A stretch of 45,838 nucleotides of DNA, taken from NCBI GenBank assembly GCA_014143165.1, contig GCA_014143165.1_4843.1; one strand, written 5' to 3'. Positions 764 through 41,280 of the stretch are shown one piece after another. The number at the start of each line of letters is the position of its first letter. The stretch's first letter is position 1. A model generated the notes under the pieces. The model saw only the letters and a program-made list of their open reading frames with translations. It ran no database searches and had not been told where the DNA came from. Position numbers and translations under genes: made by a program. Origin of the DNA: a phage.

Positions 764-802
764 TATAATAAATGCTCCTTTGTGAATTTGATGTATATTG
801 TA

Positions 803-4603
<3,801 letters not shown>

Positions 4604-7715: not shown

Positions 7716-7724
7716 ATTATATCA
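7716..7724 (-). promoter_or_regulatory. Extended -10 promoter TGATATAAT (leftward, drives chaperone/TMP/tip genes)
   Basis: The reverse complement of ATTATATCA at 7716-7724 is TGATATAAT. The same 9-mer recurs at 9115-9123 and 19105-19113, each time just upstream of a minus-strand late gene block. Confidence 0.55.
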
Positions 7725-7735
7725 TCTCAGTGGTG

Positions 7736-7764
7736 TTGACACCTGTGAGGTGGTGATGTAGATT
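7736..7764 (+). promoter_or_regulatory. Sigma70-type promoter TTGACA-17-TAGATT (rightward)
   Basis: TTGACA at 7736-7741, 17-nt spacer, TAGATT at 7759-7764. The first plus-strand gene starts at 7788. Confidence 0.65.
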
Positions 7765-7787
7765 CAAGTCATCGAAACGAGGTATGA

Positions 7788-7994
7788 ATGAGGTTAGCTA
7801 TGGACGTTGTTATTTTGTTGTTTTTTGTTGGCTTGGTGATATTTGCGTACCTTCTGCCATCTTTTGTGGCCCTGCAACGCAAGCACGTAAACACGACTGC
7901 AATCTGCGTACTGAATATTCTTGTCGGATGGAGCTTTATTGGATGGGTTGCGGCACTGGTTTGGGCATTGGTTAAAAGTGGCGACAAGAAATGA
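7788..7994 (+). CDS. Small membrane protein, superinfection-immunity (Imm_superinfect-like) family
   Basis: 68 aa with two TM segments. NILVGWSFIGWVAALVWAL matches the GW..GW..AL.WA signature of the small superinfection immunity protein family. Confidence 0.6.
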   Translation: MRLAMDVVILLFFVGLVIFAYLLPSFVALQRKHVNTTAICVLNILVGWSFIGWVAALVWALVKSGDKK

Positions 7995-8134
7995 ACGAGC
8001 AAACAAAAGCAGACCTGATTTTCTACACTGAACTGTATGTTGATGCAGGTTACGACTATGAAGAAGCTGAACGCATGGCGAAAGACTTACTCCGCGTGAT
8101 TGGTGTTATTTTTGATGAGGACAAGGTGATATGA
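7991..8134 (+). CDS. Hypothetical small protein (47 aa)
   Basis: Hand-translated: MNEQTKADLIFYTELYVDAGYDYEEAERMAKDLLRVIGVIFDEDKVI. ATGA overlaps with both neighbours suggest translational coupling. Below the ORF-track cutoff. Confidence 0.4.
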   Translation: MNEQTKADLIFYTELYVDAGYDYEEAERMAKDLLRVIGVIFDEDKVI

Positions 8135-8331
8135 GCCAGTGGATTAAGTGTGGTGAGATGCTTCCTGGCGATGGGTATACGGATAAGGAGTTCCTGGTGT
8201 ATGAAATGTTGAATAACGCAGTTCAGCATGATTATTACATCGTTCCTGATGATGGTAGAAAGCCATTCTGGAATCACTATGGTAAGTACGTGACTCACTG
8301 GATGCCACTACCAGAGCCACCACAAGAATAA
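8131..8331 (+). CDS. DUF551-like protein
   Basis: 66 aa with WIKCGEMLP near the N-terminus and VTHWMPLPEPP at the C-terminus, the hallmark of DUF551 phage proteins. Confidence 0.65.
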   Translation: MSQWIKCGEMLPGDGYTDKEFLVYEMLNNAVQHDYYIVPDDGRKPFWNHYGKYVTHWMPLPEPPQE

Positions 8332-9078: not shown

Positions 9079-9114
9079 TTCGATCTCCGAATTGTGTTAG
9101 CTGCTAACGTGGTG

Positions 9115-9123
9115 ATTATATCA
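9115..9123 (-). promoter_or_regulatory. Extended -10 promoter TGATATAAT (leftward, drives major tail gene)
   Basis: The reverse complement of 9115-9123 is TGATATAAT, about 37 nt upstream of the ATG at 9078, with GGAGA as SD. Confidence 0.55.
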
Positions 9124-9129
9124 CAGGTG

Positions 9130-9158
9130 TTGACAGTGATTATTTTGTGGTGTAGATT
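9130..9158 (+). promoter_or_regulatory. Sigma70-type promoter TTGACA-17-TAGATT (rightward, drives the non-coding unit)
   Basis: TTGACA at 9130-9135, 17-nt spacer, TAGATT at 9153-9158. The flanks share blocks with the 7713-7770 promoter cassette (GATTATATCA, GGTGTTGACA, TGTAGATT, AAGTC). Confidence 0.65.
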
Positions 9159-9164
9159 AAAGTC

Positions 9165-9640
9165 TACTTAAGATATGAATTGATTTATGCGTGAGTTTTC
9201 AACTTTCTGAAAGGAAGGTGACCAAAATGAATGAAATCTCAATTTGAAGAGGTCAAAATAATTAGCGGTCGAGAGACGCCGGACGCGTAACCGGCACACA
9301 ACAGGTAAGAGCATTGGTGTACCAGAAGCCCGTGGGTTATGGCTAAGGAGTCCCAAGTGAGCGCATAAGTGCTCTTTCCGTTGTGGTGAATGCGCAGGCT
9401 GATGCGCGAAAGACATTGCAGCTATTGCGGAAAAGAGCTGTTCGGCGGGGCAATTAAACGCCCGTGAGAGTCTGAAATAACCGCAAGCCGGAGATCAGCA
9501 CCGGCCACCACAACACTTAATATCCAGCATTATCGCAATCATATGTAGGGGTATGTATGGGTTACGGGGCTGGATATTAAGAAAGCACGCTGGCAATGCT
9601 TAAACCAGTAATAAGGCCGCCAAGTGCGGCTTTATTTATT
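9165..9640 (+). ncRNA. Candidate structured non-coding RNA (~0.47 kb), class unknown
   Basis: Bounded by the promoter at 9130-9158 and the terminator at 9613-9640. No plus-strand ORF exceeds ~25 codons. Multiple hairpins are present: 9278-9282/9291-9295, 9359-9364/9369-9374, 9392-9396/9403-9407, 9419-9423/9436-9440, 9487-9491/9501-9505, a perfect 13-bp stem 9516-9528/9569-9581, and 9583-9587/9597-9601. Confidence 0.45.
9613..9640 (+). terminator. Intrinsic terminator of the non-coding unit
   Basis: GCCGC-CAAGT-GCGGC (9616-9630) followed by TTTATTTATTT. The opposite strand lacks a T-tract, so it should act mainly on rightward transcription. Confidence 0.7.
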
Positions 9641-12241: not shown

Positions 12242-12270
12242 TTGACGTAGATTGACGTAGCGTTTATAGT
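12242..12270 (+). promoter_or_regulatory. Promoter TTGACG-17-TATAGT with tandem TTGACGTAG repeats
   Basis: TTGACG at 12242-12247, 17-nt spacer, TATAGT at 12265-12270. The region contains GACGTAGATT (12244-12253), GACGTAGCGT and GATGTAGAAA (12275-12284). Confidence 0.55.
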
Positions 12271-12293
12271 TGTTGATGTAGAAACAGCAATAA

Positions 12294-12488: not shown

Positions 12489-13298
12489 ATGAAAACACTC
12501 AGCAAAATATATTCAGACAAAGAAACGCGCAACGGCATCGCTGTTAACAAAACCTATCTCGTGCCAGTTGAGCAAATCTATCTGGAACCGGGCTACAACA
12601 TCCGTGAAGCAGATGAGCAGCATGTGGAATATTTCGCGCAGTGCTGGGAATCAGGTCAGCCACTGCCAGCATTAACAGTTATTCCTGACGAGAAGGGAAT
12701 CCGCATTCTTAATGGTCAGCATCGCTATCTCGGCGAATTGCGTGCCATTGAGCGTGGCGCGCCAATCGTTCGCATTGAGTGTAATGATTTTACAGGAGAC
12801 GAAGCAGATAAAATCGCCTTCATGGTGTCATCCAGTCAGGGTAAGCAGCTCGACCCGTTTGAGCGCGCAAAGGCTTACACGAGACTGAAAGGTTTTGGCT
12901 GGACGAATGAAGAAATCGCCAAAAAGGTAGGCCGCTCAGTATCTGATGTGCAAATGCATCTGTCACTGGGTGATGTTCCAGCGGAAGTGAAAGCGCGCAT
13001 CAGTGCAGGACAAATCAGCTATGCAAATGCCGTAGCGGTAACGCGCGAGCATGGTGATGATGCGGCTAAAGTTATCGACGAGGCAGTCGAAGAGGCCAAA
13101 GCACAAGGCAAAGACAAGGTCACAGCGAAAGTACTGAAGGCGAAAAAGATTAAGCCAGTAGACCGCCTGATTGAGTTATTGAAGCCAGCCGACCATGTGA
13201 TTCTCCCCGCTGGTCATGTGGTGGCAGAGGATGAGGAATTTATCCAGATTCCTGTCGCAGACATTCACGAGGTTATGGCAATTCTGGAGAAGATGTGA
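12489..13298 (+). CDS. ParB-like nuclease-domain / HTH DNA-binding protein
   Basis: 269 aa. The ParB N-terminal domain signature is present (ILNGQHRYLGELRA), followed by an HTH-like WTNEEIAKKVGRSVSDVQ. Confidence 0.8.
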   Translation: MKTLSKIYSDKETRNGIAVNKTYLVPVEQIYLEPGYNIREADEQHVEYFAQCWESGQPLPALTVIPDEKGIRILNGQHRYLGELRAIERGAPIVRIECNDFTGDEADKIAFMVSSSQGKQLDPFERAKAYTRLKGFGWTNEEIAKKVGRSVSDVQMHLSLGDVPAEVKARISAGQISYANAVAVTREHGDDAAKVIDEAVEEAKAQGKDKVTAKVLKAKKIKPVDRLIELLKPADHVILPAGHVVAEDEEFIQIPVADIHEVMAILEKM

Positions 13299-19104: not shown

Positions 19105-19113
19105 ATTATATCA
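19105..19113 (-). promoter_or_regulatory. Extended -10 promoter TGATATAAT (leftward, drives scaffold-capsid block)
   Basis: The reverse complement of 19105-19113 is TGATATAAT, 30 nt upstream of the ATG at 19075. It overlaps the ATG (19113) of the opposite-strand endonuclease-like gene. Confidence 0.55.
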
Positions 19114-20510
19114 TGCCGAAGAAGATGACTATTGATGAGCTCAAAGAAAAGATTCGTAGCGTTCATGGCGAGACGTATGAGTATGATTTTCATACCTTCC
19201 ATGGCTGCCACTCACCAATGAAAATAGTATGCAAAAAGCATGGGGAATTCTGGCAAAAGCCATCCAAACACCTTCATGGTCAGGGGTGTGCAAAGTGCCA
19301 AAGGGGCGTTATTTCTGTCGATGACTTCAAATCAATGGCCTCCGCTATTCATGACGGGAAATATGACTATAGCAAGGTTTTTTTTGAAGCGTTTTCAAGG
19401 GCAAAGATAACAATCGGATGCCCGATTCATGGGTGGTTTGAGCAATTGGCCTACATTCATCTGAAGAGGGGTAATGGATGCCCAAGGTGTGGAGATGAGA
19501 GATCGAGAAAAGCCAAGTTAAAAAAGTTCAGCAATTTTGTTGATGATGCGAAATACGTCCATGGTGATAAGTATGAGTATTCCCCGAATGGTTTTACTGG
19601 TTCTCGAGGCAAGATTAATATCTTATGTCCTACACATGGTGAGTTTACTCAAGGTGCCGCAAATCACCTGGCTGGTAATGGGTGCCCATCGTGCGCAAGA
19701 GTGATGTCAAACATAGAAGCCGATATCCTTGCATTTGTTAAGTCACTGGACCCACATGTGATCAGCAGGGATAGAGCAACGATAGCACCATATGAACTGG
19801 ATATAGTCTCAAGAGCAAAATCATTAGCCATAGAGGTAAACGGCACATACTGGCACTCGGAGAGGGCTGGGAAAGATAGGTTATATCACAAAATGAAAAG
19901 AGAGATGGTTGAAGAATCTGGGATGAGATTGATAAGCATAAGAAGTGATATATGGAGAGATAAGCGCGAATTAGTAGAGGAAATAATAATTAATGCCATG
20001 GGGGCATCTGAGAGCAGGAAGGTTGACGCAAGAAAGTGCACCATTAAAGATGTATCACCATCTGAATCAAGGGCTTTTCTTGATAGATACCATGTTATGG
20101 GAGGGAGGAATGCCAGTAGGCACTTCGGTTTATTTTGTGGCGGTGAACTGGTATCTGTTATGTCATTTACAGTAAGGAAAGGTTCTGTTGAGTTAGTTAG
20201 ATTCGCATCTAAATGCAATGTTCGTGGTGGGTTAACAAAGATGCTAAAACACTGCTCATCAGTTGTTGGTTTTGATAAGTGTTTCAGCTATGTAGACCTT
20301 GATTTGTTTACCGGTAAATCATACCTCTTAGCTGGCTTTAAAGCTGTAAGCATAAAACCCGGATTCGCGATTGTTAACGGAAATCATGTGGAATCAAGGC
20401 AAAAGTGGAATAAGGCACCTAATGGCATGACTCAGAGCGAATGGTACGAATCTGAAGGCGTAAGCAGGATATGGGATAGCGGACAAATGAGAATAGAGTG
20501 GAGTAAATAG
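19113..20510 (+). CDS. Homing-endonuclease-like protein (three Zn-ribbon repeats + Vsr/PD-(D/E)XK-like core + C-terminal domain)
   Basis: 465 aa. A module HG..Y.Y......I.C..HG.F.Q....HL.G.GC..C is repeated three times. It is followed by ELDIVSRAKSLAIEVNGTYWHSE (a Vsr/DUF559-like nuclease motif) and a ~170-aa C-terminal domain. This is a solitary plus-strand gene with its own terminator. Confidence 0.55.
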   Translation: MPKKMTIDELKEKIRSVHGETYEYDFHTFHGCHSPMKIVCKKHGEFWQKPSKHLHGQGCAKCQRGVISVDDFKSMASAIHDGKYDYSKVFFEAFSRAKITIGCPIHGWFEQLAYIHLKRGNGCPRCGDERSRKAKLKKFSNFVDDAKYVHGDKYEYSPNGFTGSRGKINILCPTHGEFTQGAANHLAGNGCPSCARVMSNIEADILAFVKSLDPHVISRDRATIAPYELDIVSRAKSLAIEVNGTYWHSERAGKDRLYHKMKREMVEESGMRLISIRSDIWRDKRELVEEIIINAMGASESRKVDARKCTIKDVSPSESRAFLDRYHVMGGRNASRHFGLFCGGELVSVMSFTVRKGSVELVRFASKCNVRGGLTKMLKHCSSVVGFDKCFSYVDLDLFTGKSYLLAGFKAVSIKPGFAIVNGNHVESRQKWNKAPNGMTQSEWYESEGVSRIWDSGQMRIEWSK

Positions 20511-20542: not shown

Positions 20543-20658
20543 GTGGTCGAATTATAACACAGGGAGATATAGCACCATGAGGCGGTAGCCAGTGCAAATA
20601 ATGGCGAATCGGTGAGTGCGTATAGCGTGAGAAAGTAAGGGATGGGGATTATGTTCAT
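20524..20658 (-). CDS. Hypothetical small hydrophobic protein (44 aa)
   Basis: Hand-translated: MNIIPIPYFLTLYALTDSPLFALATASWCYISLCYNSTTKKGVK. AGGAGG lies 6 nt upstream, and the start codon falls inside an 8-bp inverted repeat (20656-20663/20683-20690). Confidence 0.35.
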   Translation of the reverse strand: MNIIPIPYFLTLYALTDSPLFALATASWCYISLCYNSTTKKGVK

Positions 20659-21682: not shown

Positions 21683-22171
21683 TCATACTCTTGCTTCTTG
21701 CGTTTGGCTTTCCCCATAATGACCCCTCACATTGCGAAGAAGTGAATTGAACAGGTTGCTGACGTTAACTTCCTGCTCACGCCACGAATAACGCCACAGC
21801 TTCTTGTGGTGGTCATAGCTTCGCGTCACATCACCGTTATGAAACATGATGCGGATTCTGCTTTTCACGATTCGGTAATCAATACCAGTGGCTACGCTGA
21901 TTTCTTTCACTTCCGCGCCAGCATTATCAAGCAGGTGACACTTAATCGCATCATCAATGCCAGCAGCATCATCAGAGATGAAATATTTATACTGCCACTT
22001 GCCACCACGAATCACTGACTTCTCACGGCGAATGAAGCCAAGAGCAAGCATCTCATGCAAACGATGCGTTGTAGTGCTTGAATGTTTTCCGCTGCAATGC
22101 TTCTCAATGTATGCGCGAGTTGCACCAGGATGATTGATAATCACGCGCATGATTTGTGATTTATAATCCAT
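21683..22171 (-). CDS. Putative winged-helix DNA-binding protein
   Basis: The track ORF begins at 22336. The ATG at 22171 (MDYKSQIMRVIINHPGATRAYIEKH...) has AAGGA upstream. MarR-like wHTH segments are present (HRLHEMLALGFIRRE). Confidence 0.5.
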   Translation of the reverse strand: MDYKSQIMRVIINHPGATRAYIEKHCSGKHSSTTTHRLHEMLALGFIRREKSVIRGGKWQYKYFISDDAAGIDDAIKCHLLDNAGAEVKEISVATGIDYRIVKSRIRIMFHNGDVTRSYDHHKKLWRYSWREQEVNVSNLFNSLLRNVRGHYGESQTQEARV

Positions 22172-22880: not shown

Positions 22881-22924
22881 TGGTACAATCTACGTCAATA
22901 AGTATTGACTAAATGATGTAGATT
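22881..22924. promoter_or_regulatory. Divergent promoter / operator region
   Basis: TGgTACAAT (22881-22889, plus strand) is an extended -10. An imperfect inverted repeat AATCTACGTCAATA (22887-22900) / TAAATGATGTAGATT (22910-22924) carries two copies of the GAYGTAGATT motif. Confidence 0.5.
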
Positions 22925-22958: not shown

Positions 22959-23174
22959 ATGCCAAGACCACGACGCGAGCCGATGGACATTATCACCAGC
23001 ATTGTGGAGAAGCGGCAGCCGCTGACGCTCCGTGATGTTCGCTACTTTGCCCGTTGCTATGTGGCGCTGGCTGATATGTCTAAAAATGACATGTATGATT
23101 TAATTCGTGCCAACTTCAGTGTTGACGAGAATAACAAAGTCACAATAAAGGAGAGTGATGATGGATTGGAATGA
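22959..23174 (+). CDS. Hypothetical protein
   Basis: The ATG at 22959 (MPRPRREPMDII...) has AAGGAG 8 nt upstream. The track ORF starts earlier at 22923. Confidence 0.5.
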   Translation: MPRPRREPMDIITSIVEKRQPLTLRDVRYFARCYVALADMSKNDMYDLIRANFSVDENNKVTIKESDDGLE

Positions 23175-23643
23175 TGTGTTCGAATACCGTGATGGGTTGC
23201 TATATTGGAAGATAAAAACAAACAGAAACATGAAAATAGGGAGGATGGCAGGAAGCATGGCAGGTAATGGGTACATGCAGGTTCATTGCTTTGGAAAAGT
23301 GCGACTGATGCATAGAATAATTTGGGAAATGCACAATGGTGAGATACCGGAGGGGATGGAGATTGATCATATAAACCACATTCGTGATGATAATAGGATT
23401 GAGAATCTCAGATTGGTAAGCAGAAAGCAGAACGCCAAGAATCTTTCTATGCGATCTGATAACACGAGTAATGTTGTCGGAGTTAGTTGGGATAATAAGA
23501 GTAAGAAATGGTATGCAAAGATTGCCGTGAACGGAAAGCAGATTGCGCTTGGCAGATTCTCAAACTTGTCAATGGCTGCAGAGTGCAGAAAAGCAGCTGA
23601 GGAAAAATATTGTTTCCATAAAAATCACGGAGCATTAAAGTAA
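23155..23643 (+). CDS. HNH homing endonuclease with AP2-like DNA-binding domain
   Basis: 162 aa. The HNH_3-type core is present (GYMQV...HRIIWEMHNGEIPEGMEIDHINHIRDDNRIENLRLV), followed by GVSWDNKSKKWYAKIAVNGKQIALGRF..MAAECRKAAE (AP2 domain). Confidence 0.85.
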   Translation: MMMDWNDVFEYRDGLLYWKIKTNRNMKIGRMAGSMAGNGYMQVHCFGKVRLMHRIIWEMHNGEIPEGMEIDHINHIRDDNRIENLRLVSRKQNAKNLSMRSDNTSNVVGVSWDNKSKKWYAKIAVNGKQIALGRFSNLSMAAECRKAAEEKYCFHKNHGALK

Positions 23644-25889: not shown

Positions 25890-25898
25890 ATTCTATCA
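25890..25898 (-). promoter_or_regulatory. Extended -10 promoter TGATAGAAT (leftward, drives lysis cassette)
   Basis: The reverse complement of 25890-25898 is TGATAGAAT, 27 nt upstream of the endolysin ATG. AGGAGG serves as SD. Confidence 0.5.
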
Positions 25899-25906
25899 CA
25901 ATGATA

Positions 25907-25937
25907 TTGACGTAGATTGAGTGGTGGTGCATAGTAT
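25907..25937 (+). promoter_or_regulatory. Promoter TTGACG-17-CATAGT(AT) with flanking inverted GAYGTAGAT motifs
   Basis: TTGACG at 25907-25912. GACGTAGATT (25909-25918) and the inverted GATGTAGATA (25935-25944) form an imperfect inverted repeat around the spacer. Confidence 0.5.
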
Positions 25938-25967
25938 CTACATCAAATGACGAATGAGGAATAAAAG

Positions 25968-26351
25968 ATGGGAATGTACACAGAATTGGTTCTGAAGTGT
26001 CAAATCAAGGGCGACGCACCGAAAGAGGTGATGGATGTAATCCAGTACATGTTTGCTGGTGCAGATGAGCCAGCAAAGCTTCCTGAGCATGAATTTTTCA
26101 CACTACCGCGCTGGGATTCCATTGGTAACTGCTGTAGCTTTTACCATCACCCATCAGTAGTCAATAGTTGCCCAAAATTTGACTACAGCGAAGAGCAATA
26201 CATCTTCAGTCGTAGCGATATCAAAAACTATAGCGGTGAGATTCAGGCATTTCTGGATTGGGTAAAGCCTTACATTGACGCAATGGAAGGCCAGTGCATT
26301 GGTTGGACTTGGTATGAAGAAGAATTGCAGCCTACATTAATTATCTTTTAA
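25968..26351 (+). CDS. Hypothetical protein
   Basis: 127-aa ORF, first gene of the plus-strand cassette. Confidence 0.55.
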   Translation: MGMYTELVLKCQIKGDAPKEVMDVIQYMFAGADEPAKLPEHEFFTLPRWDSIGNCCSFYHHPSVVNSCPKFDYSEEQYIFSRSDIKNYSGEIQAFLDWVKPYIDAMEGQCIGWTWYEEELQPTLIIF

Positions 26352-26360
26352 GGTTAAATC

Positions 26361-26504
26361 ATGGTAATGGTCAAATTCAAAGAAAACGGACGCTGCGGAG
26401 TGTTCAATCTTGAGCAAATCAAAATCCGTCCGTGCGGTAAGGTGGTTGCGCCATTTGGTATGGTGCAGATGCGCGAAGTTGAGATTGTTGAATATATTAA
26501 GTGA
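26361..26504 (+). CDS. Hypothetical small protein (47 aa)
   Basis: Hand-translated: MVMVKFKENGRCGVFNLEQIKIRPCGKVVAPFGMVQMREVEIVEYIK. AAGG lies upstream, and it fills the gap between neighbouring genes. Confidence 0.4.
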   Translation: MVMVKFKENGRCGVFNLEQIKIRPCGKVVAPFGMVQMREVEIVEYIK

Positions 26505-26510
26505 GGTTGC

Positions 26511-26762
26511 ATGAAAGAGTTTAAGGGAATCCCGGGGTCGTGGCATTACGATGATGAACTTGGTTGGGTCTATATTAAAGGCAGCCAATTCGTGTGCGAT
26601 GTTACCGATAAGGATAATGCCAACCTCATCGCCGCAGCGCCTGAGCTTCTGGAGGCTTTGCAGAAAATGCTCAGCAAAGCGTATAAGCAAAACTGGAATG
26701 ATGCATACCCAGAAGAGCTTAAATCAGCACAGAGTGCAATCAACAAAGCACTGGGAGAATGA
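26511..26762 (+). CDS. Hypothetical protein (AAAPELLEAL-motif phage family)
   Basis: 83 aa. NANLIAAAPELLEALQ is a motif recurrent in small enterobacterial phage proteins of unknown function. Confidence 0.55.
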   Translation: MKEFKGIPGSWHYDDELGWVYIKGSQFVCDVTDKDNANLIAAAPELLEALQKMLSKAYKQNWNDAYPEELKSAQSAINKALGE

Positions 26763-26763
26763 A

Positions 26764-27369
26764 ATGAAACTTATCGACCTGTTAGTTCAAGAATTACCTA
26801 AGCGTGGCGGGTGGCCTCATAATGCTCTGTCAATTACTCAAGATGATGACGGTTCGCTGTGTGTATGGGACACGAATGATCCCCACTATGATGGATTTTC
26901 ATGGAAACATCACACTGGGAATAGCCTTGTGCATTACTGGCATGGAATTGAGGACGTACCTTTATCTTGCGACCACAGGGAGTCGATAGTGACCTATTGG
27001 CAATATAAAGCAGCACTCGCCGCATCGCAAAAGCCAACATGGAACGGCGAAGGTCTTCCTCCTGCTGGGTGTGAGTGTGAGTTTATAAGCAACGACACAT
27101 CATGGGGAGTTGTCAGAGTTATTGGAATGGATGATGACAAGGTTGTAATTAAGCCGTCTGGAGAAATTTATTACGGAATAACTCCATCTAATAGACAGGT
27201 ATTCCGCCCACTCCGCACAGAAGCGGAAATGAAGCATGAGGCAGTGCTTGAATCTATCTGCGCGGTATTAGAGATGGTAGCGCAGGATTACAAGCGCAGT
27301 GATGAGGCCAAACTCATTTATGAAGCTATCGCAGCAGGAAAGATTCCCGGCGTTAAACTGGATGATTAA
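26764..27369 (+). CDS. Hypothetical protein
   Basis: The track ORF (26551) overlaps the previous gene. The in-frame ATG at 26764 (MKLIDLLVQELPKRGGWP...) directly follows its stop. Confidence 0.55.
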   Translation: MKLIDLLVQELPKRGGWPHNALSITQDDDGSLCVWDTNDPHYDGFSWKHHTGNSLVHYWHGIEDVPLSCDHRESIVTYWQYKAALAASQKPTWNGEGLPPAGCECEFISNDTSWGVVRVIGMDDDKVVIKPSGEIYYGITPSNRQVFRPLRTEAEMKHEAVLESICAVLEMVAQDYKRSDEAKLIYEAIAAGKIPGVKLDD

Positions 27370-29804: not shown

Positions 29805-29833
29805 AATAAAAAATCCCTCACGATGGAGGGATT
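29805..29833 (-). terminator. Intrinsic terminator / attenuator just upstream of the portal start
   Basis: AATCCCTC-CATCGT-GAGGGATT followed on the minus strand by TTTTTTATT. It ends about 8 nt before the portal ATG. Confidence 0.6.
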
Positions 29834-29858
29834 ATAGCATGACTGCTTGGCGCAAAAG

Positions 29859-31008: not shown

Positions 31009-31215
31009 TCACCCTCTCAAAAAATCATTCTTGCAGCAGATACCCTTATATCCGCGCTTCTCTTGCAGGTTAACGAAAACATCATCAATAACGCGCAGCA
31101 GGAAATCCTCGTCGATGTCATACCGACGGCAAATTACCTCGTCAGGCACACCAGCACGCGCTAGTGAATAAACCCGCTCTTTCTCCTCCTGTGTGAATCC
31201 TGCATAGCTGCGCAT
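31009..31215 (-). CDS. Small HTH-like DNA-binding protein (tentative)
   Basis: The ATG at 31215 (MRSYAGFTQEEKERVYSLARAGVPDEVICRRYDIDEDFL...) has GGAGA upstream. Its helix-turn-helix-like core resembles resolvase/Psq-type HTH. First gene after the promoter at 31247-31275. Confidence 0.45.
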   Translation of the reverse strand: MRSYAGFTQEEKERVYSLARAGVPDEVICRRYDIDEDFLLRVIDDVFVNLQEKRGYKGICCKNDFLRG

Positions 31216-31246
31216 AGTTATATCTCCGATAAACCTGATGTAGATT

Positions 31247-31275
31247 ATACTATGCGCTCGGTGTAGATTGGTCAA
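31247..31275 (-). promoter_or_regulatory. Promoter TTGACC-17-TAGTAT (leftward) overlapped by plus-strand GRTGTAGATT copies
   Basis: Minus strand: TTGACC (31270-31275), 17 nt, TAGTAT (31247-31252). Plus-strand motif copies lie at 31237-31246, 31260-31269 and 31283-31292. Confidence 0.5.
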
Positions 31276-31291
31276 GTGTGGTGATGCAGAT

Positions 31292-32716
31292 TTATCTCCT
31301 GCGCCGGATTAGCATCCCGCTACCGCGCTGGACGATGTGATCATTAAGTGCGTAACGAACCGCATCCCAGTAGTGGTTATATGCATCAACAATATCAGTC
31401 AGCACATTCCCTGTCAGCTTATCGACCTTGTAGCTGTACATTGCAGCTTCATTCTGCATCTCCTTGCATCGTTCGTGAATAACAATGCCGTCACAGCCGC
31501 GCAGCCACGTTACACCATCTTCAACGCTACCTGGCCATTTCGTGCATGGATGAATATCAAATCCAGAACGCTTTATGTGGCTGATTGTTTCAGGCCGAGC
31601 ACAGTCGGCATACCATCGTGCGCGCTTAGCCATCGGGAATGATTGTTGCATCGCGGCTGGCGTGTCAGTAATCTCAAGCCCAACCCTGCCATACTCGCGA
31701 TTAATATAAATGTTGCGCCGTCCACCTGGTAATTCTTCGATGTAAACCTCAACCATCGCGGTAGGGTCAGTGGAGAAACCGAAGTCCATACCGAAGTATG
31801 GTCCATGCCATTCAGGTTTAACCTCAAAGTTGTCGACGCGCCATTTGCCGCCGAAGACTTGTTCGTCGCTGCGCTTGTTGAAGGATCCCATCCAAATCCA
31901 GCGATAACGGTCGTAATCAGTTCGCTTCATTTGCTCCATAGCGGATGGCAACGGCGTATCCCAGAACCACGGGTTGTCTGAATAGTTACATTCGATAATC
32001 AGTATTTCATCATTTTCGAATATGCCATCAACCATCTGTGAGTGATAGGGGGCAATCCAGTTTTTCCACGTCGGGTCTGTGTCTTTGTTGGGGTTGAATG
32101 AGCACCACAACTCAGAGTTTGCAGCACGGATGGTAGGCACGAGAATATCCCAGCTTGTCTGGCTGACGTTCTCTGCTTCCTCTACCCAGCCAACGGTAAT
32201 GCCAGCAAAACCTTTAACCGTAGTCTGGTTGCGATACAACCCTTTGAAGCGGAATTTAGCTTTGGTCTTCTTGTGTGTTATCTCGTTGTTGATAACACGG
32301 AACTCAGCTGACTCACCCTTACGCGCTATTTCGTCGCACAATTCCTGATAGCTTGAGTCTTCAATGGATTGCTGAATCTCACGAAAGCAGGCGAAACGGT
32401 CAGGTCGAAACCTTGCACGCTCAGTAAGTATAGTGATAATCGTTCTCGTCTTACCTGACCCGCGGCCACCGTAGACAAACTTGAATCGTTTGGGATAAAG
32501 CAGGCGCTCCAGTTTTGCAGGAATCAGGTGGTCGGCATGATTAGTTACATTGGTCACATCATCAACGCCAGTGGCGGTCATCCTTAACCGCTTAATGACA
32601 TTCTTCTGCATGTCGCAGATGCCAAAGATAGCTGACTCTGCAACATCAGTCATTGCATCATCAATCTGCGCTTCCAGCTTTTCGATTGCTAGAGCGGAAA
32701 GGCGTTTACGAGCCAT
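31292..32716 (-). CDS. terL: Terminase large subunit (PBSX / Terminase_3 type)
   Basis: 474 aa. It has the Walker A motif YGGRGSGKT and nuclease-domain acidic motifs in the C-terminal half. Confidence 0.9.
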   Translation of the reverse strand: MARKRLSALAIEKLEAQIDDAMTDVAESAIFGICDMQKNVIKRLRMTATGVDDVTNVTNHADHLIPAKLERLLYPKRFKFVYGGRGSGKTRTIITILTERARFRPDRFACFREIQQSIEDSSYQELCDEIARKGESAEFRVINNEITHKKTKAKFRFKGLYRNQTTVKGFAGITVGWVEEAENVSQTSWDILVPTIRAANSELWCSFNPNKDTDPTWKNWIAPYHSQMVDGIFENDEILIIECNYSDNPWFWDTPLPSAMEQMKRTDYDRYRWIWMGSFNKRSDEQVFGGKWRVDNFEVKPEWHGPYFGMDFGFSTDPTAMVEVYIEELPGGRRNIYINREYGRVGLEITDTPAAMQQSFPMAKRARWYADCARPETISHIKRSGFDIHPCTKWPGSVEDGVTWLRGCDGIVIHERCKEMQNEAAMYSYKVDKLTGNVLTDIVDAYNHYWDAVRYALNDHIVQRGSGMLIRRRR

Positions 32717-33307: not shown

Positions 33308-33327
33308 ATTGTAACAGATTCTACACC
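33308..33327 (-). promoter_or_regulatory. Late-operon promoter candidates (TGTTACAAT extended -10; GGTGTAGAAT motif)
   Basis: The minus strand reads GGTGTAGAATCTGTTACAAT. It lies between the early-operon terminator and the terS ATG at 33264. Confidence 0.45.
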
Positions 33328-35469: not shown

Positions 35470-35652
35470 TCAGAACACGATAATCAGCTCATCCATTACT
35501 CTGCGCTTACCTTCACCATTAAACACGCGCACAACGCGATTTACACGTATAGATTCCATTGCATTGCGTGCCTGCTTGCTCATAAAGTTCTGCGCGCCAA
35601 CATGACCAAGTTCTTGTTCCAGCTTCTCTCGTCGATAGATAGTCTTTGCCAT
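35470..35652 (-). CDS. Hypothetical protein
   Basis: 60-aa ORF. Its ATG directly follows the stop of the upstream mini-ORF. Confidence 0.5.
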   Translation of the reverse strand: MAKTIYRREKLEQELGHVGAQNFMSKQARNAMESIRVNRVVRVFNGEGKRRVMDELIIVF

Positions 35653-35979: not shown

Positions 35980-36009
35980 CTCTTCAACCTCACTTGTTTC
36001 GATGAGTTC

Positions 36010-36038
36010 AATCTACATCAGATGTGATTCTACGTCAA
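36010..36038 (-). promoter_or_regulatory. Leftward early promoter TTGACG-17-TAGATT
   Basis: Minus strand: TTGACG (36033-36038), 17 nt, TAGATT (36010-36015). It contains two motif copies, GATGTAGATT (36010-36019) and GACGTAGAAT (36027-36036). Confidence 0.65.
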
Positions 36039-36204
36039 CACACAGAGAAAGAAAAAGAACGACTAAATGTTAGTGAACGTTAGCTTACATGCATAGTTAC
36101 ATGTATCACTAATAGTAACCTTTGTTTATTACCTCTATAAAGTATATTAAGATCTTCTTTATATTTATTATAGATATTAATACCTTACGCTACAGAAAAA
36201 CGAA

Positions 36205-36230
36205 AACCAGCAATTAAGCTGGTTATTTTT
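36205..36230. terminator. Bidirectional hairpin between the early promoter and the iteron region
   Basis: AACCAGC-AATTAA-GCTGGTT (36205-36224) has T-runs on both strands (ATTTTTTAG on plus, TTCGTTTTTC on minus). Confidence 0.5.
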
Positions 36231-36252
36231 TAGTGGTTTTTAGTATTTTTTT

Positions 36253-36480
36253 GCTTCCCGGGCTTCCCGTGATTTCTGGTAAGCGTTTTTTTCTTTGTTT
36301 TCAGTAGCTTCGTAGTGTTTTTTGTATCGCTTCCCGCTTCCAAGAAAAATAATTTTTGAATTTTAAAACTCTCAATTTTTTCGAAAATCTTCTCGGGAAG
36401 CGGGAAGTTGGGAAGCGACCACTTAAACCATTGATTTTTCTGTATTTCCGCTTCCCGGGTTAAAATAAACATTGGGAAGC
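36253..36480. repeat. Iteron array GGGAAGC / GCTTCCC around an AT-rich core (putative replication origin)
   Basis: GCTTCCC at 36253, 36262, 36329 and 36450, plus a degenerate GCTTCCA at 36336. GGGAAGC at 36395, 36410 and 36474, plus GGGAAGT at 36402. The AT-rich spacer at 36343-36390 separates oppositely oriented copies. The array lies immediately upstream of the primase/helicase operon. Confidence 0.6.
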
Positions 36481-36647
36481 CAAATTATTGAAAAATAAAG
36501 AAAAGTTGCCACTCTGGAAGCTGTTATACACCTGTTGGAAATTGTTGTCAACAACCCGGAGCCTGGATCAGCTGCGTGGAATATGCTTGCTGATGTGTCT
36601 TTTTTCCTTTATTCTTTTTTTTGCCAAAAACCAAGCGGAGGTGAGTG

Positions 36648-40035: not shown

Positions 40036-40062
40036 AAAAAGCCCGCAAACGCGGGCTTTATT
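40036..40062. terminator. Bidirectional intrinsic terminator
   Basis: AAAGCCCGC-AAAC-GCGGGCTTT is flanked by A-runs and T-runs. It lies between convergent genes. Confidence 0.8.
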
Positions 40063-40303
40063 ATTTAACAATCCATTTTGTAACAGCTGGCCTTAAATCT
40101 TCCTTTCTGAAAAATCCACCAGTAAGTTTCTCGGCATCAATTGCTGCTGTAGCGCTAATTCTTCCTCTTGACACCCACTGATTGACAGCCTGTTTTGACA
40201 CACCAAGAAACCTTGCCAGTTGTGATTGCCCTCCAACATAATCAATCAGCTCTGACAGCTTCGTCTGTTCCATTTCTCTTATCTGTTCTGCGATGCTTTT
40301 CAT
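40061..40303 (-). CDS. Cro / YdaS-like HTH transcriptional regulator
   Basis: The ATG at 40303 (MKSIAEQIREMEQTKLSELIDYVGGQSQLARFLGVSKQAVNQWVSRGRIS...) has GAGGT upstream. It carries a classical HTH with the QAV.QW signature of the Cro/YdaS family. Confidence 0.7.
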   Translation of the reverse strand: MKSIAEQIREMEQTKLSELIDYVGGQSQLARFLGVSKQAVNQWVSRGRISATAAIDAEKLTGGFFRKEDLRPAVTKWIVK

Positions 40304-40332
40304 GTGTTTACCTCTGCTATCTGTATGCAGCA

Positions 40333-40394
40333 ATAATGAACTCAAAAAAAATTTTCGTCAAGGTATTGCGTTTACCATCACGTTGACGTATCTT
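40333..40394. promoter_or_regulatory. Divergent promoters (leftward TTGACG-17-CATTAT; rightward TTGCGT-17-TATCTT)
   Basis: Minus strand: TTGACG (40356-40361) and CATTAT (40333-40338). Plus strand: TTGCGT (40366-40371) and TATCTT (40389-40394). Confidence 0.45.
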
Positions 40395-40437
40395 TAAGTC
40401 ACACCAGCGATATGCTGAGTTAAATCGAGAGGACACT

Positions 40438-41280
40438 ATGAGCTTATCAATGATTCAAAAACCAAAACCAGCAGCGCCAATCATAACATTGGTTGGTACT
40501 CCAGGTGTAGGCAAGACAACTCTTGCGGCGCTATTCCCAAACCCAGTGTTTATTCAGGCTGAAGAGATCACTGGTGTTTTTGATGACTGGGATGATGAAA
40601 AGAAACCTGATTCATTTCCTGTTCTGAAGCGCGCTGACGCTAAACGCAAAACAAGCACAAAGGATGATTTGCTGTCACAGCTACGCGCATTAATTACTGA
40701 GGAACATAATTACAAAACGCTTGTAATTGACTCAATCACAAGCCTGCATTCAATGTTTGAGCATGAGGTTTGTGAAAATTACGGTGTTGACAACGTTGGT
40801 TCTGCGGCTGGTGGTTACAACAAAGGATATATTGTTGTTTCTGAAATGCACGCTGAAATAATAAATGCATGTAAGTATCTTCGCAAAGAAAAAGGGATGA
40901 GCATTATTTATCTTGCGCACGCAGGTGTTAAAAAGATGAAGAATCGCCCTGATGCTGATGAATACACTGTTTACACACTTGACATGCATGATGCTTCTGT
41001 TTCTGGTTATGTGAATCTTAGTGATGCTGTTATTTACATCAGGAATGAGGAGTTTGTGAAAGGTACTGAAACTGATAAAAAAGGTCAGGTAACTAAGTTT
41101 GGTAAAGTTGTTCAGACTGGTCAGCGAGTTCTTATTACCTCTGGTGATGGTCGCATTGGGTATGTTAATGCTAAAAACAGATACAACCTTGAGCCTGAAA
41201 TTCCTTTTGAAAAAGGTGAGAACCCGCTTTTGAGTGAGATTAAATATTATGCATCTCTACGAGATAACCAAACAGCTTAA
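40438..41280 (+). CDS. Sak4-like RecA-fold ATPase (AAA_24 family)
   Basis: 280 aa. Walker A LVGTPGVGKTTLA is present. Gene context (Gp157 and a DUF669-type SSB downstream) is the typical Sak4 recombination module. Confidence 0.7.
   Translation: MSLSMIQKPKPAAPIITLVGTPGVGKTTLAALFPNPVFIQAEEITGVFDDWDDEKKPDSFPVLKRADAKRKTSTKDDLLSQLRALITEEHNYKTLVIDSITSLHSMFEHEVCENYGVDNVGSAAGGYNKGYIVVSEMHAEIINACKYLRKEKGMSIIYLAHAGVKKMKNRPDADEYTVYTLDMHDASVSGYVNLSDAVIYIRNEEFVKGTETDKKGQVTKFGKVVQTGQRVLITSGDGRIGYVNAKNRYNLEPEIPFEKGENPLLSEIKYYASLRDNQTA

What the first reader, a model, noticed from the sequence alone, without database searches (positions are those of the whole stretch)
31237..31292. A 10-bp motif G-R-Y-GTAGATT recurs in the intergenic promoter regions inspected, sometimes where it cannot be a -10 element
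Plus-strand copies:
- 7755-7764 GATGTAGATT
- 9149-9158 GGTGTAGATT
- 12244-12253 GACGTAGATT
- 12275-12284 GATGTAGAAA
- 22915-22924 GATGTAGATT
- 25909-25918 GACGTAGATT
- 31237-31246 GATGTAGATT
- 31260-31269 GGTGTAGATT
- 31283-31292 GATGCAGATT

Minus-strand copies:
- 22887-22896 GACGTAGATT
- 25935-25944 GATGTAGATA
- 33318-33327 GGTGTAGAAT
- 36010-36019 GATGTAGATT
- 36027-36036 GACGTAGAAT

Interpretation:
- At 7759, 9153 and 36010 the TAGATT part lies exactly 17 nt downstream of TTGAC(A/G), so there it is simply the phage's preferred -10.
- Elsewhere that reading fails. At 12244, 22887, 25909 and 36027 the motif overlaps a -35 hexamer, giving TTGACGTAGATT. At 22887/22915 and 25909/25935 it forms inverted pairs.
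- In 31237-31292 three plus-strand copies sit over a minus-strand promoter, with no plus-strand gene downstream.

Inference: the motif doubles as an operator for a phage regulator that coordinates the many separate cassettes. Candidates are the Cro/YdaS-like protein 40061-40303, the wHTH protein 21683-22171 and the small HTH-like protein 31009-31215. Alternatively it is a phage-specific promoter element.

I scanned by eye, so the count is not exhaustive. Partial matches such as GATGTAGTTG do occur inside genes.
Basis: partly seen in the sequence, partly recalled or inferred. Interest (0 to 1): 0.5.

Follow-up and report, generated by a model that had tools for sequence, protein, structure and literature searches.

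The report
Shared operator-like motif on phage promoters
An 11-base sequence (T-G-R-Y-G-T-A-G-A-W-W) sits on top of nine promoters of the small-gene cassettes in this lytic phage and all its relatives, and it most likely serves as the binding site of one phage protein that switches those promoters off together.

Summary
GRYGTAGAWW occurs 13 times against about 1 expected, and every copy lies in the 11% of the window that is non-coding. It is among the most over-represented 10-mers in the window. It is equally enriched (12-19 copies against about 0.7 expected) in eight related phage genomes.

All 14 listed copies fall between -35 and +8 of nine sigma-70-like promoters, in both orientations and in five different registers. 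At two orthologous promoters in distant relatives the copy is kept but flipped or shifted. The core G..GTAGA never varies, while the last two bases are fixed as TT only where the site also serves as the -10.

This fits an asymmetric operator for a phage-encoded repressor better than a promoter element.

The Cro-like gene and the winged-helix gene are each missing from some motif-bearing relatives, and both are missing from a viable genome-reduced one. The 68-aa protein survives these tests.

No binding was tested. This is a new member of a known kind and is moderately interesting.

The parts
31237..31246 (+). Motif copy GATGTAGATT. It is inverted relative to the minus-strand promoter it overlaps and covers about -6 to +4 of that promoter.
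   Evidence: Its 9-bp core shows no variant in 34 distinct relatives, while the 5'UTR next to it varies.
31260..31269 (+). Motif copy GGTGTAGATT. It is inverted and lies directly downstream of the -35 hexamer (about -29 to -20), reading TTGACCAATCTACACC on the minus strand.
31283..31292 (+). Degenerate third copy GATGCAGATT, upstream of the -35 and ending at the stop of the large-terminase ORF (31292). It reads GATGC(A/G)GATT in relatives. In swi2, Sa179lw and most IMG/VR relatives it adjoins a full motif-bearing promoter that drives a divergent cassette absent from this window.
31247..31275 (-). Predicted sigma-70 promoter TTGACC-N17-TAGTAT of the operon 31215 to 29859 (the 68-aa protein plus five small genes).
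   Evidence: It is conserved in 34 relatives.
7755..7764 (+). Motif copy that is itself the -10 (TTGACA-N17-TAGATT). The promoter drives the superinfection-immunity cassette 7800-8331.
9149..9158 (+). Motif copy that is itself the -10 (TTGACA-N17-TAGATT). The promoter reads into a 557-bp stretch with no good ORF.
12244..12253 (+). Motif copy overlapping the -35 (TTGACGTAGATT, about -33 to -24) of the promoter TTGACG-N17-TATAGT. That promoter drives the ParB-like / methylase / RusA operon.
12275..12284 (+). Motif copy GATGTAGAAA at about -2 to +8 of the same promoter. It reads GACGTAGAAA in Sa179lw, YX3973 and pIS4-A.
22887..22896 (-). Motif copy GACGTAGATT at about -2 to +8 of the minus-strand promoter TTGACC-N18-AATACT.
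22915..22924 (+). Motif copy shared by two divergent promoters. It sits in the spacer (-26 to -17) of the plus-strand TTGACT-N18-AACAAT. It sits inverted just after the -35 of the minus-strand TTGACC-N18-AATACT. At the orthologous minus-strand promoter in contigs L044 and L045 the -35-proximal copy is flipped to the forward, -35-overlapping form TTGACGTAGATA.
25909..25918 (+). Motif copy overlapping the -35 (TTGACGTAGATT) of the promoter TTGACG-N17-CATAGT for the cassette 25968-27369.
25935..25944 (-). Motif copy GATGTAGATA, inverted, at about -7 to +3 of the same promoter. It lies in the opposite orientation in Klebsiella phage YX3973.
33318..33327 (-). Motif copy GGTGTAGAAT in the spacer (-26 to -17) of TTAACG-N18-TACAAT, upstream of the 139-aa protein / large-terminase operon and just after a terminator.
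   Evidence: It is conserved in YX3973.
36010..36019 (-). Motif copy that is itself the -10 of TTGACG-N17-TAGATT. The promoter drives the small-gene operon 35979 to 33412.
36027..36036 (-). Motif copy GACGTAGAAT overlapping the -35 of the same promoter.
790..799 (+). Weak extra copy GATGTATATT, inverted just after a TACAAT -10-like hexamer upstream of the tail-spike gene.
   Evidence: Not examined further.
12489..13298 (+). ParB/KorB-family DNA-binding protein (269 aa). It is the top candidate for the motif-binding regulator.
   Evidence: Pfam HTH_ParB 2.5e-11 and KorB 6.5e-6. PDB sequence matches to Spo0J 2e-11 and KorB 5.7e-4. It is present in all eight motif-bearing relatives with an invariant helix-turn-helix. 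It is retained in the reduced genome.
31009..31215 (-). 68-aa protein (p68), a three-helix HTH-like fold. It is the second candidate and is the first gene behind the promoter in the finding.
   Evidence: AlphaFold2 pLDDT 83. Only non-significant HTH fold matches. No Pfam family. It is 95-97% identical in the enterobacterial group and 52-54% in the Klebsiella group.

Best explanation
The 11-bp asymmetric sequence T-G-R-Y-G-T-A-G-A-W-W is an operator. It is a protein-binding site laid over the core of the strong sigma-70-type promoters that drive the many small-gene cassettes, the cassette holding the 68-aa protein, and the terminase operon. Each of the nine promoters carries one or two copies somewhere between -35 and +8.

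A phage-encoded DNA-binding protein made early in infection would occupy these sites. It would block RNA polymerase by steric occlusion and shut the whole set of promoters down together. The late structural and lysis operons would not be affected, because they use a different, motif-free class of extended -10 promoters.

Where the site coincides with the -10 hexamer it has to satisfy both sigma-70 (TAGATT) and the regulator. The most likely binder is the ParB/KorB-family protein 12489-13298, and the second candidate is the 68-aa protein 31009-31215.

Shown here: the enrichment, the placement, the conservation, the orientation changes, and the presence or absence of the candidate genes. Inferred: that a protein binds, that it represses, and which protein it is.
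For: 1. Enrichment and location. There are 13 copies against about 1 expected, all in the 11% of the window that is non-coding.

2. Conservation. There are 12-19 copies against about 0.7 expected in IME207, Sa179lw, ECO95, ECO111, EI_sp1, YX3973, pIS4-A and seszw_280L. The motif is among the most over-represented 10-mers in the three genomes ranked this way: the window, YX3973 and pIS4-A.

3. Placement. An independent sigma-70 scan finds nine promoters in the motif-bearing gaps, and all 14 copies lie within -35 to +8 of one of them. The registers are -33/-24, -30/-20 (inverted), -26/-17, -16/-7 and about -7/+8. Ten copies are forward and four inverted.

4. The site is kept while its orientation or position changes at orthologous promoters. 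The second site of the 25907 promoter is inverted in the window but direct in YX3973. The -35-proximal site of the 22930 promoter is TTGACC+AATCTACATC here but TTGACGTAGATA in L044 and L045. Site B of the 68-aa gene's promoter is shifted by 3 nt in those contigs.

5. The pattern of constraint is not that of sigma-70. G1, G4, T5, A6, G7 and A8 never vary. T10, which is the essential -7 T when the site acts as a -10, is relaxed to A at sites that are not the -10. It is TT in 25 of 26 sites that have a good -35 at N16-18.

6. Footprint at the finding itself. In 34 distinct relatives site B, which lies over the discriminator and transcription start, has no variant in 9 columns, while the adjoining 5'UTR varies at most columns.

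7. A second, motif-free promoter class exists. TGNTAKAAT has 7 hits, all on the late-gene strand, and at least five lie 27-37 nt upstream of the start of a late operon.

8. Candidate binder. A genuine ParB/Noc/KorB-family protein is universal in the group, its helix-turn-helix is invariant, and it is retained in a viable reduced genome.
Against: No binding, transcription-start or expression data exist for any of these phages.

Twelve of the 14 copies point towards a gene within about 75 nt. Five proximal copies lie 28-36 nt upstream of a start codon, so a directional promoter-element reading is not fully excluded.

Several promoters are clearly paralogous. The flanks and the 5'UTR also match between 7755, 9149 and 36010. 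Part of the conservation may therefore reflect duplicated promoter modules rather than independent selection on the motif.

The sigma-70 scan as a whole is not above chance (24 against 21, 29 against 25, 30 against 28.5), so promoter calls rest on position and conservation.

Known ParB, KorB and Noc sites are 13-16-bp palindromes, and this motif has no dyad symmetry. The 68-aa protein has an acidic presumed recognition helix (YDIDEDFLLRV).

A temperate phage with a 49%-identical ParB-like protein lacks the motif. This says little either way, because its recognition helix differs.
Confidence: 0.6

Rival explanations
1. The motif is only this phage lineage's preferred sigma-70 promoter sequence. 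On this view the -10 is TAGATT with a favoured upstream GRYG, the -35 is TTGACG followed by chance or by descent by TAGATT, the whole was copied around the genome with the promoter modules, and no dedicated protein reads it.
For: Three copies are perfect -10 elements 17 nt after TTGACA or TTGACG. Twelve of 14 copies point towards a nearby gene, and five lie 28-36 nt from a start codon. Flanks and 5'UTRs are shared between 7755, 9149 and 36010, which indicates duplicated modules. TAGATT is a workable -10 hexamer; that it is the -10 of lambda PRM is recalled from memory and was not checked here.
Against: Eleven of 14 copies cannot be the -10 of the promoter they lie on. Copies at 31237 and 31260 point into the end of the terminase gene with no gene to serve. 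Orientation flips at orthologous promoters. The invariant bases G1, G4 and G7 are not sigma-70 determinants, while the -7 T is relaxed at sites that are not the -10. The TG sits at -14/-13, not at the -15/-14 of an extended -10.
Confidence: 0.2
2. The motif is the site of a host protein, such as a global regulator or nucleoid protein, that the phage exploits to time its early promoters.
For: The motif is unchanged across phages reported on Escherichia, Salmonella, Shigella, Klebsiella and Aeromonas hosts, even though most phage proteins diverge. No phage protein has been shown to bind it.
Against: I compared the motif by memory with the sites of CRP, FNR, IHF, Fis, DnaA, H-NS, MetJ, NarL and LexA, and none fits the invariant GTAGA core. 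This was not a database test. The composite promoter form has no hit in 185,579 bacterial and archaeal genomes, so it is not a recurrent host regulatory module.
Confidence: 0.08
3. The repeated promoter sequence matters mainly as a recombination substrate that lets cassettes be swapped between related phages, like the promoter-plus-stem-loop modules of T4-type phages.
For: Cassette content differs widely between relatives at exactly the motif-bearing junctions. One example is the divergent cassette present next to the 68-aa gene in swi2, Sa179lw and most IMG/VR relatives but absent here. Cassettes are bounded by a motif-bearing promoter and a terminator.
Against: Ten or eleven base pairs is very short for homologous exchange. 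This reading does not explain the strict placement within -35 to +8, the inverted copies, or the flips at otherwise conserved promoters. It is compatible with the operator reading as a side effect.
Confidence: 0.07

Closest known systems
Phage P1 C1 repressor and its dispersed asymmetric operators (recalled from memory, not checked in the literature here)
   Same: A short asymmetric site is scattered over the genome in more than ten copies. Copies occur singly or in pairs, in either orientation, and overlap promoter core elements, so that one protein controls many separate transcription units.
   Different: P1 is temperate and C1 is its immunity repressor, with 17-bp operators. This phage group is described as lytic, no C1 homologue was seen, and the site is 11 bp.
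Mycobacteriophage L5/L1 gp71 repressor, with asymmetric 13-bp operators and stoperators (PMC1934351, found; details from memory)
   Same: One phage protein recognises many asymmetric sites in short intergenic regions.
   Different: Most L5 sites lie inside transcription units in one orientation and stop elongation. Here every good site lies on a promoter and both orientations occur.
KorB of IncP plasmids, a ParB-family global repressor with 12 operators
   Same: The window encodes a true ParB/KorB-family protein. A set of dispersed promoters shares one site, some copies overlapping the -35.
   Different: The KorB operator is a 13-bp palindrome (from memory). The motif here has no dyad symmetry, and binding by the phage protein is untested.
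Phage T4 MotA box of middle promoters
   Same: A phage-specific sequence near -30 combines with a sigma-70 -10.
   Different: The MotA box replaces the -35 at a fixed position and in a fixed orientation, and it activates. Here canonical -35 hexamers are present and the site varies in position and orientation.

Membership tests
Sigma-70 -10 hexamer | A TAnnnT hexamer lies 16-18 bp downstream of a -35-like hexamer. | tested here: inconclusive
   Met for 3 of 14 copies (7755, 9149, 36010). Not met for the other 11, whose best -35 match at N16-18 is 3 of 6 or worse.
Extended -10 promoter element (TGn) | TG lies at -15/-14, one base before the hexamer. | tested here: not met
   In the motif, G4 lies directly before TAGATT, so the TG is at -14/-13. 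True TGNTAKAAT elements exist elsewhere in the window, on the late-gene strand.
Dispersed asymmetric repressor operators (P1 C1 / L5 gp71 type) | An asymmetric site occurs in many dispersed copies that overlap promoters, in either orientation. | tested here: met
Dispersed asymmetric repressor operators (P1 C1 / L5 gp71 type) | The site is bound by a dedicated phage repressor. | not testable with these tools
   No binding data exist. Only the presence or absence of candidate genes was tested.
L5-type stoperators | Sites lie inside transcription units in one orientation relative to transcription. | tested here: not met
   All strong sites lie on promoters. The few coding-region hits are at the chance rate of about one per genome.
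ParB / KorB / Noc site (parS, OB, NBS) | A palindromic 13-16-bp site is read by a dimer. | tested here: not met
   No conservation extends beyond the 11 bp and there is no dyad symmetry. Pairs of copies occur at variable spacing and orientation.
ParB / KorB / Noc protein family (protein 12489-13298) | The protein has an N-terminal ParB domain followed by a ParB-type helix-turn-helix. | tested here: met
   Pfam HTH_ParB and KorB hits are above their cut-offs. Sequence matches to Spo0J, ParB, Noc and KorB structures together span residues 25-224.
T4 MotA box | The site has a fixed position near -30 and a single orientation, and it replaces the -35. | tested here: not met
   Five registers and both orientations occur, and consensus -35 hexamers are present.

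The most novel reading that the evidence does not exclude
The lytic phage uses a ParB/KorB-family protein as a genome-wide transcriptional switch. The protein would load at asymmetric 11-bp sites on every early-cassette promoter, possibly as a CTP-dependent clamp as in KorB. It would silence these outward-facing promoters so that the motif-free extended -10 promoters can transcribe the late operons on the opposite strand without head-on conflict. This would extend ParB-family gene silencing from plasmids and chromosomes to the temporal programme of a virulent phage, and to a non-palindromic site.
Probability: 0.2. Interest if true: 0.7.

Novelty: new member of a known kind. Interest (0 to 1): 0.45.

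Why it matters
This phage group spans eleven enterobacterial genera plus a Klebsiella/Aeromonas cluster (PMC11769527). At least 206 sequenced records carry the group's 68-aa marker gene. Members are widely isolated for therapy and biocontrol, and one of them is a genome-reduction chassis (PMC9825161). I found no description of how their transcription is organised.

The motif gives a ready map of one regulon. It marks nine promoters that drive most of the unknown small genes, including a superinfection-immunity homologue, Lar-like restriction-alleviation genes, and homing-endonuclease-type inserts. It also points to a simple two-class promoter logic that can be tested directly.

For engineering, the map shows which junctions carry regulated promoters and which small set of proteins might control them.

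Tried and rejected
- A first ORF-length gene call was too crude. I replaced it with a codon-usage call.
- Rfam found nothing in the window at gathering thresholds, and nothing in 9079-9640 at E up to 1. ARAGORN found no tRNA.
- The Cro-like and winged-helix proteins were rejected as the universal binder on presence/absence grounds. The basic DUF7540 protein 35470-35652 was dropped as well, because it is absent from the viable reduced genome.
- I tested whether the motif follows the ParB-like gene outside the group. Phage Bas97 has a 49%-identical homologue and only one motif copy. This is not informative, because its recognition helix differs.
- The fold search of the 68-aa model gave only non-significant HTH matches (E 0.37 or higher). 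Pfam gave nothing for it, even at E up to 10.
- The tandem half-copy GACGTAGCGT at 12254 was rejected as a site because it is not conserved in Sa179lw, YX3973 or pIS4-A.
- The supplementary gene-essentiality table of the genome-reduction paper is not held.
- Literature searches for the phage names, for TAGATT, and for ParB-like phage repressors found nothing on this motif.
- Comparison with host transcription-factor consensus sites was done from memory only.
Full report
**What the window is**

The window is most of the genome of a lytic siphovirus. It is patchily 88-92% identical to Salmonella phage IME207 (Shuimuvirus), Escherichia phages swi2 (Swiduovirus) and Sa179lw (Buchananvirus), Shigella phage Sf11 and others.

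Its layout is unusual. The structural and lysis operons lie on the minus strand. They are interrupted by many short cassettes of small genes, most on the opposite strand, and each cassette has its own promoter and terminator.

**Check of the observation**

- GRYGTAGATT occurs 9 times against 0.35 expected. GRYGTAGAWW occurs 13 times against 1.04 expected. No shuffle out of 100 reaches either count.
- The copy at 31283 (GATGCAGATT) is a one-mismatch variant.
- Under a codon-usage gene call, 11.1% of the window is non-coding, and all 13 strict copies lie there (binomial P = 4e-13).
- TTGACGTAGA and TGATGTAGAT are among the most over-represented 10-mers in the window, found without any prior pattern.
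- A weight-matrix scan leaves a clean gap between the listed sites (14.7 or higher) and all other positions (12.7 or lower). It adds one weak site at 790.
- The base before G1 is T in 98 of 105 distinct contexts, and nothing further is conserved. The element is therefore a compact, asymmetric 11-mer, T-G-R-Y-G-T-A-G-A-W-W.

**Where the copies sit**

A consensus scan that knows nothing of the motif finds nine sigma-70-like promoters in the motif-bearing gaps.

| Promoter (strand) | Sequence |
|---|---|
| 7736 (+) | TTGACA-N17-TAGATT |
| 9130 (+) | TTGACA-N17-TAGATT |
| 12242 (+) | TTGACG-N17-TATAGT |
| 22905 (+) | TTGACT-N18-AACAAT |
| 22930 (-) | TTGACC-N18-AATACT |
| 25907 (+) | TTGACG-N17-CATAGT |
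| 31275 (-) | TTGACC-N17-TAGTAT |
| 33337 (-) | TTAACG-N18-TACAAT |
| 36038 (-) | TTGACG-N17-TAGATT |

Genome-wide, this scan is not above chance, so it serves only as a ruler. Measured against it, all 14 copies fall between -35 and +8, in five registers.

| Register | Copies |
|---|---|
| -33 to -24, overlapping the -35 | 12244, 25909, 36027 |
| -30 to -20, inverted, just after the -35 | 31260; 22915 read on the minus strand |
| -26 to -17, in the spacer | 22915 read on the plus strand; 33318 |
| -16 to -7, being the -10 itself | 7755, 9149, 36010 |
| about -7 to +8, over the transcription start | 12275 and 22887 (forward); 25935 and 31237 (inverted) |

In the region named in the finding, the minus strand reads cTTGACC-AATCTACACC-gagcgca-TAGTAT-AATCTACATC, followed by the 5'UTR and the ATG at 31215. 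The third copy lies upstream of the -35 and is degenerate.

**Conservation**

The same motif is present 12-19 times, against about 0.7 expected, in eight related genomes:

- IME207, Sa179lw, ECO95, ECO111 and EI_sp1;
- the much more distant Klebsiella phage YX3973 and Aeromonas phage pIS4-A;
- the genome-reduced mutant seszw_280L.

The composite TTGACGTAGAWW-N7-GRYGTAGATT has no match in 185,579 bacterial and archaeal genomes. It has 74 matches in IMG/VR. Apart from three short fragments (5-21 kb), these lie on contigs of 31-51 kb, the size class of this group. The motif is therefore a lineage-wide, phage-specific feature.

**Operator or promoter element**

Four results favour a protein-binding operator.

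1. Only three copies can be the -10 of the promoter they lie on.

2. At orthologous promoters the copy is kept while its orientation or register changes.
   - The second site of the 25907 promoter is inverted here but direct in YX3973.
   - The -35-proximal site of the 22930 promoter is TTGACC+AATCTACATC here but TTGACGTAGATA in contigs L044 and L045.
   - Site B of the 68-aa gene's promoter is 3 nt closer to the -10 in those contigs.

3. The pattern of constraint is wrong for sigma-70. Across eight genomes G1, G4, T5, A6, G7 and A8 never vary. The last two bases are TT in 25 of 26 sites that have a good -35 at the right distance. They relax to AA, AT or TA elsewhere, even though the final T would be the essential -7 base of a -10.

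4. In 34 distinct relatives of the finding's own promoter, site B lies over the discriminator and transcription start. It has no variant in nine columns, while the adjoining 5'UTR varies at most columns.

Some points count against the operator reading.

- Twelve of 14 copies point towards a nearby gene.
- Five proximal copies lie 28-36 nt from a start codon.
- Some promoters are evident paralogues that share flanks and 5'UTR.

A pure promoter-consensus reading therefore keeps some weight.

**A second promoter class**

Extended -10 elements (TGNTAKAAT) occur seven times, all on the minus strand. Five of them (7716, 9115, 19105, 25890, 29831) lie 27-37 nt upstream of the first gene of a tail, major-tail, capsid, lysis or portal operon. 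None carries the motif.

The genome thus has a motif-bearing class of -35/-10 promoters for the cassettes and a motif-free class for the late operons. Differential control would require exactly this arrangement.

**Who binds**

- The Cro/YdaS-like protein (Pfam YdaS_toxin 7.6e-18) has no homologue in IME207, EI_sp1 or pIS4-A.
- The winged-helix protein is absent from ECO95, lacks its N-terminal 45 residues in IME207, and is 37% identical in the Klebsiella group.
- Neither is detectable in seszw_280L. This is a viable 37-kb derivative of a 45.9-kb Skatevirus produced by iterative CRISPR reduction (PMC9825161). It still carries 15 motif copies.

Two DNA-binding-type proteins are universal and are retained in that mutant.

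*The 68-aa protein.* It is 95-97% identical across the enterobacterial genera and 52-54% in the Klebsiella group. It folds with confidence into three helices (pLDDT 83). It matches no Pfam family and no solved fold significantly. Its presumed recognition helix is acidic and differs between groups, although the motif does not differ.

*The 269-aa protein at 12489-13298.* It is a genuine ParB/Noc/KorB-family member:
- Pfam HTH_ParB 2.5e-11 and KorB 6.5e-6;
- PDB Spo0J 2e-11 and KorB 5.7e-4;
- 97-98% identity in the enterobacterial group and 78-80% in the Klebsiella group;
- its helix-turn-helix (TNEEIAKKVGRSVSDVQMHLSL) is identical in all eight related genomes.

It is also the second gene behind a two-operator promoter.

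I rank it first, with reservations. Known sites of this family are palindromes, and this motif is not one. A host factor cannot be excluded either.

**Mechanism proposed, and what is inferred**

Shown:
- a conserved asymmetric 11-mer on the core of nine promoters;
- two promoter classes;
- two universal candidate binders.

Inferred:
- a phage protein made early occupies the sites and occludes RNA polymerase;
- this turns off the cassette promoters together, and the extended -10 promoters then carry late expression;
- repression of the plus-strand cassettes would also remove transcription that runs head-on into the late operons.

**Comparison with known systems**

The arrangement works like the dispersed asymmetric operators of P1 C1 and mycobacteriophage L5 gp71. 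In gene content it recalls the KorB regulon of IncP plasmids. It is not a MotA box, an extended -10 element or a stoperator set, because defining features of each were tested and not met.

I found no description of the motif in the literature searched.

**Verdict**

This is a real, strongly non-random and conserved regulatory motif. It is most likely a shared operator (confidence 0.6). It is a new member of a known kind. Interest is moderate, and would be higher if the ParB-family protein proves to be the binder.

Noticed in passing
window 7716-7724, 9115-9123, 19105-19113, 25890-25898, 29831-29839, 3376-3384, 20551-20559 (all minus strand): Extended -10 elements (TGATATAAT, TGATAGAAT, TGCTATAAT) lie 27-37 nt upstream of the first gene of the tail, major-tail, capsid, lysis and portal operons. 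This is a distinct, motif-free late promoter class. At 7716 and 9115 the element is back to back with a motif-bearing promoter.
   Followed up: partly
window 35980-36647: A 668-bp non-coding region holds many GGGAAGC / GCTTCCC repeats in both orientations and an AT-rich stretch. It lies between the 36038 promoter and the primase module. It looks like iterons of a replication origin.
   Followed up: no
window 9159-9635: The strong promoter at 9130 reads into about 480 bp with no good ORF. There is only a 6-codon ORF after a strong ribosome-binding site, and a terminator-like hairpin at 9359-9374. The syntenic spot carries tRNA genes in pIS4-A (swi2 is also reported to carry a tRNA-Met, position not checked); here ARAGORN and Rfam find nothing. 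It may be a small RNA or a decayed tRNA region.
   Followed up: partly
window 7765-7785 and 35989-36009; also in IME207, Sa179lw and pIS4-A: The transcribed leader just after the motif copies that act as the -10 is itself conserved between unrelated cassettes (..TCATCGAAAC(A/G)AG..GAGG). This suggests a shared 5'UTR element or a duplicated promoter-leader module.
   Followed up: no
window 19113-20510 (+): A 465-aa ORF has DUF723 and restriction-endonuclease-like hits. It has no homologue in IME207, Sa179lw or ECO95. It sits between the capsid operon and an early cassette and is probably a mobile homing endonuclease. A second HNH/AP2 endonuclease gene lies at 23158-23643.
   Followed up: partly
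L007 (Klebsiella phage YX3973), for example 27033-27042, and pIS4-A 12300 region: A variant sequence, GATGTAGTTA / TTGTAGTTAAC, is itself over-represented in YX3973 (8 copies of TGTAGTTA against 0.6 expected). At some promoters it replaces the standard motif. It may be a second operator type or a weaker class.
   Followed up: no
window 40304-40449: The divergent promoter region between the Cro-like gene and the Sak4/Gam/SSB operon carries TTGACGTATCTT and TTGACGAAAATT. These resemble the motif-bearing -35 form but lack the GTAGA core. The replication module here seems to lie outside the regulon. In IME207 and pIS4-A, which have a different replication module, that module does carry the motif.
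   Followed up: partly
window 31009-31215 and database entries P0001, P0002, P0004, P0006: Several database entries annotate the 68-aa protein as 113 aa by starting 45 codons upstream. That extension runs through the promoter and both operator copies and is not conserved in distant relatives, so it is probably an annotation artefact.
   Followed up: partly
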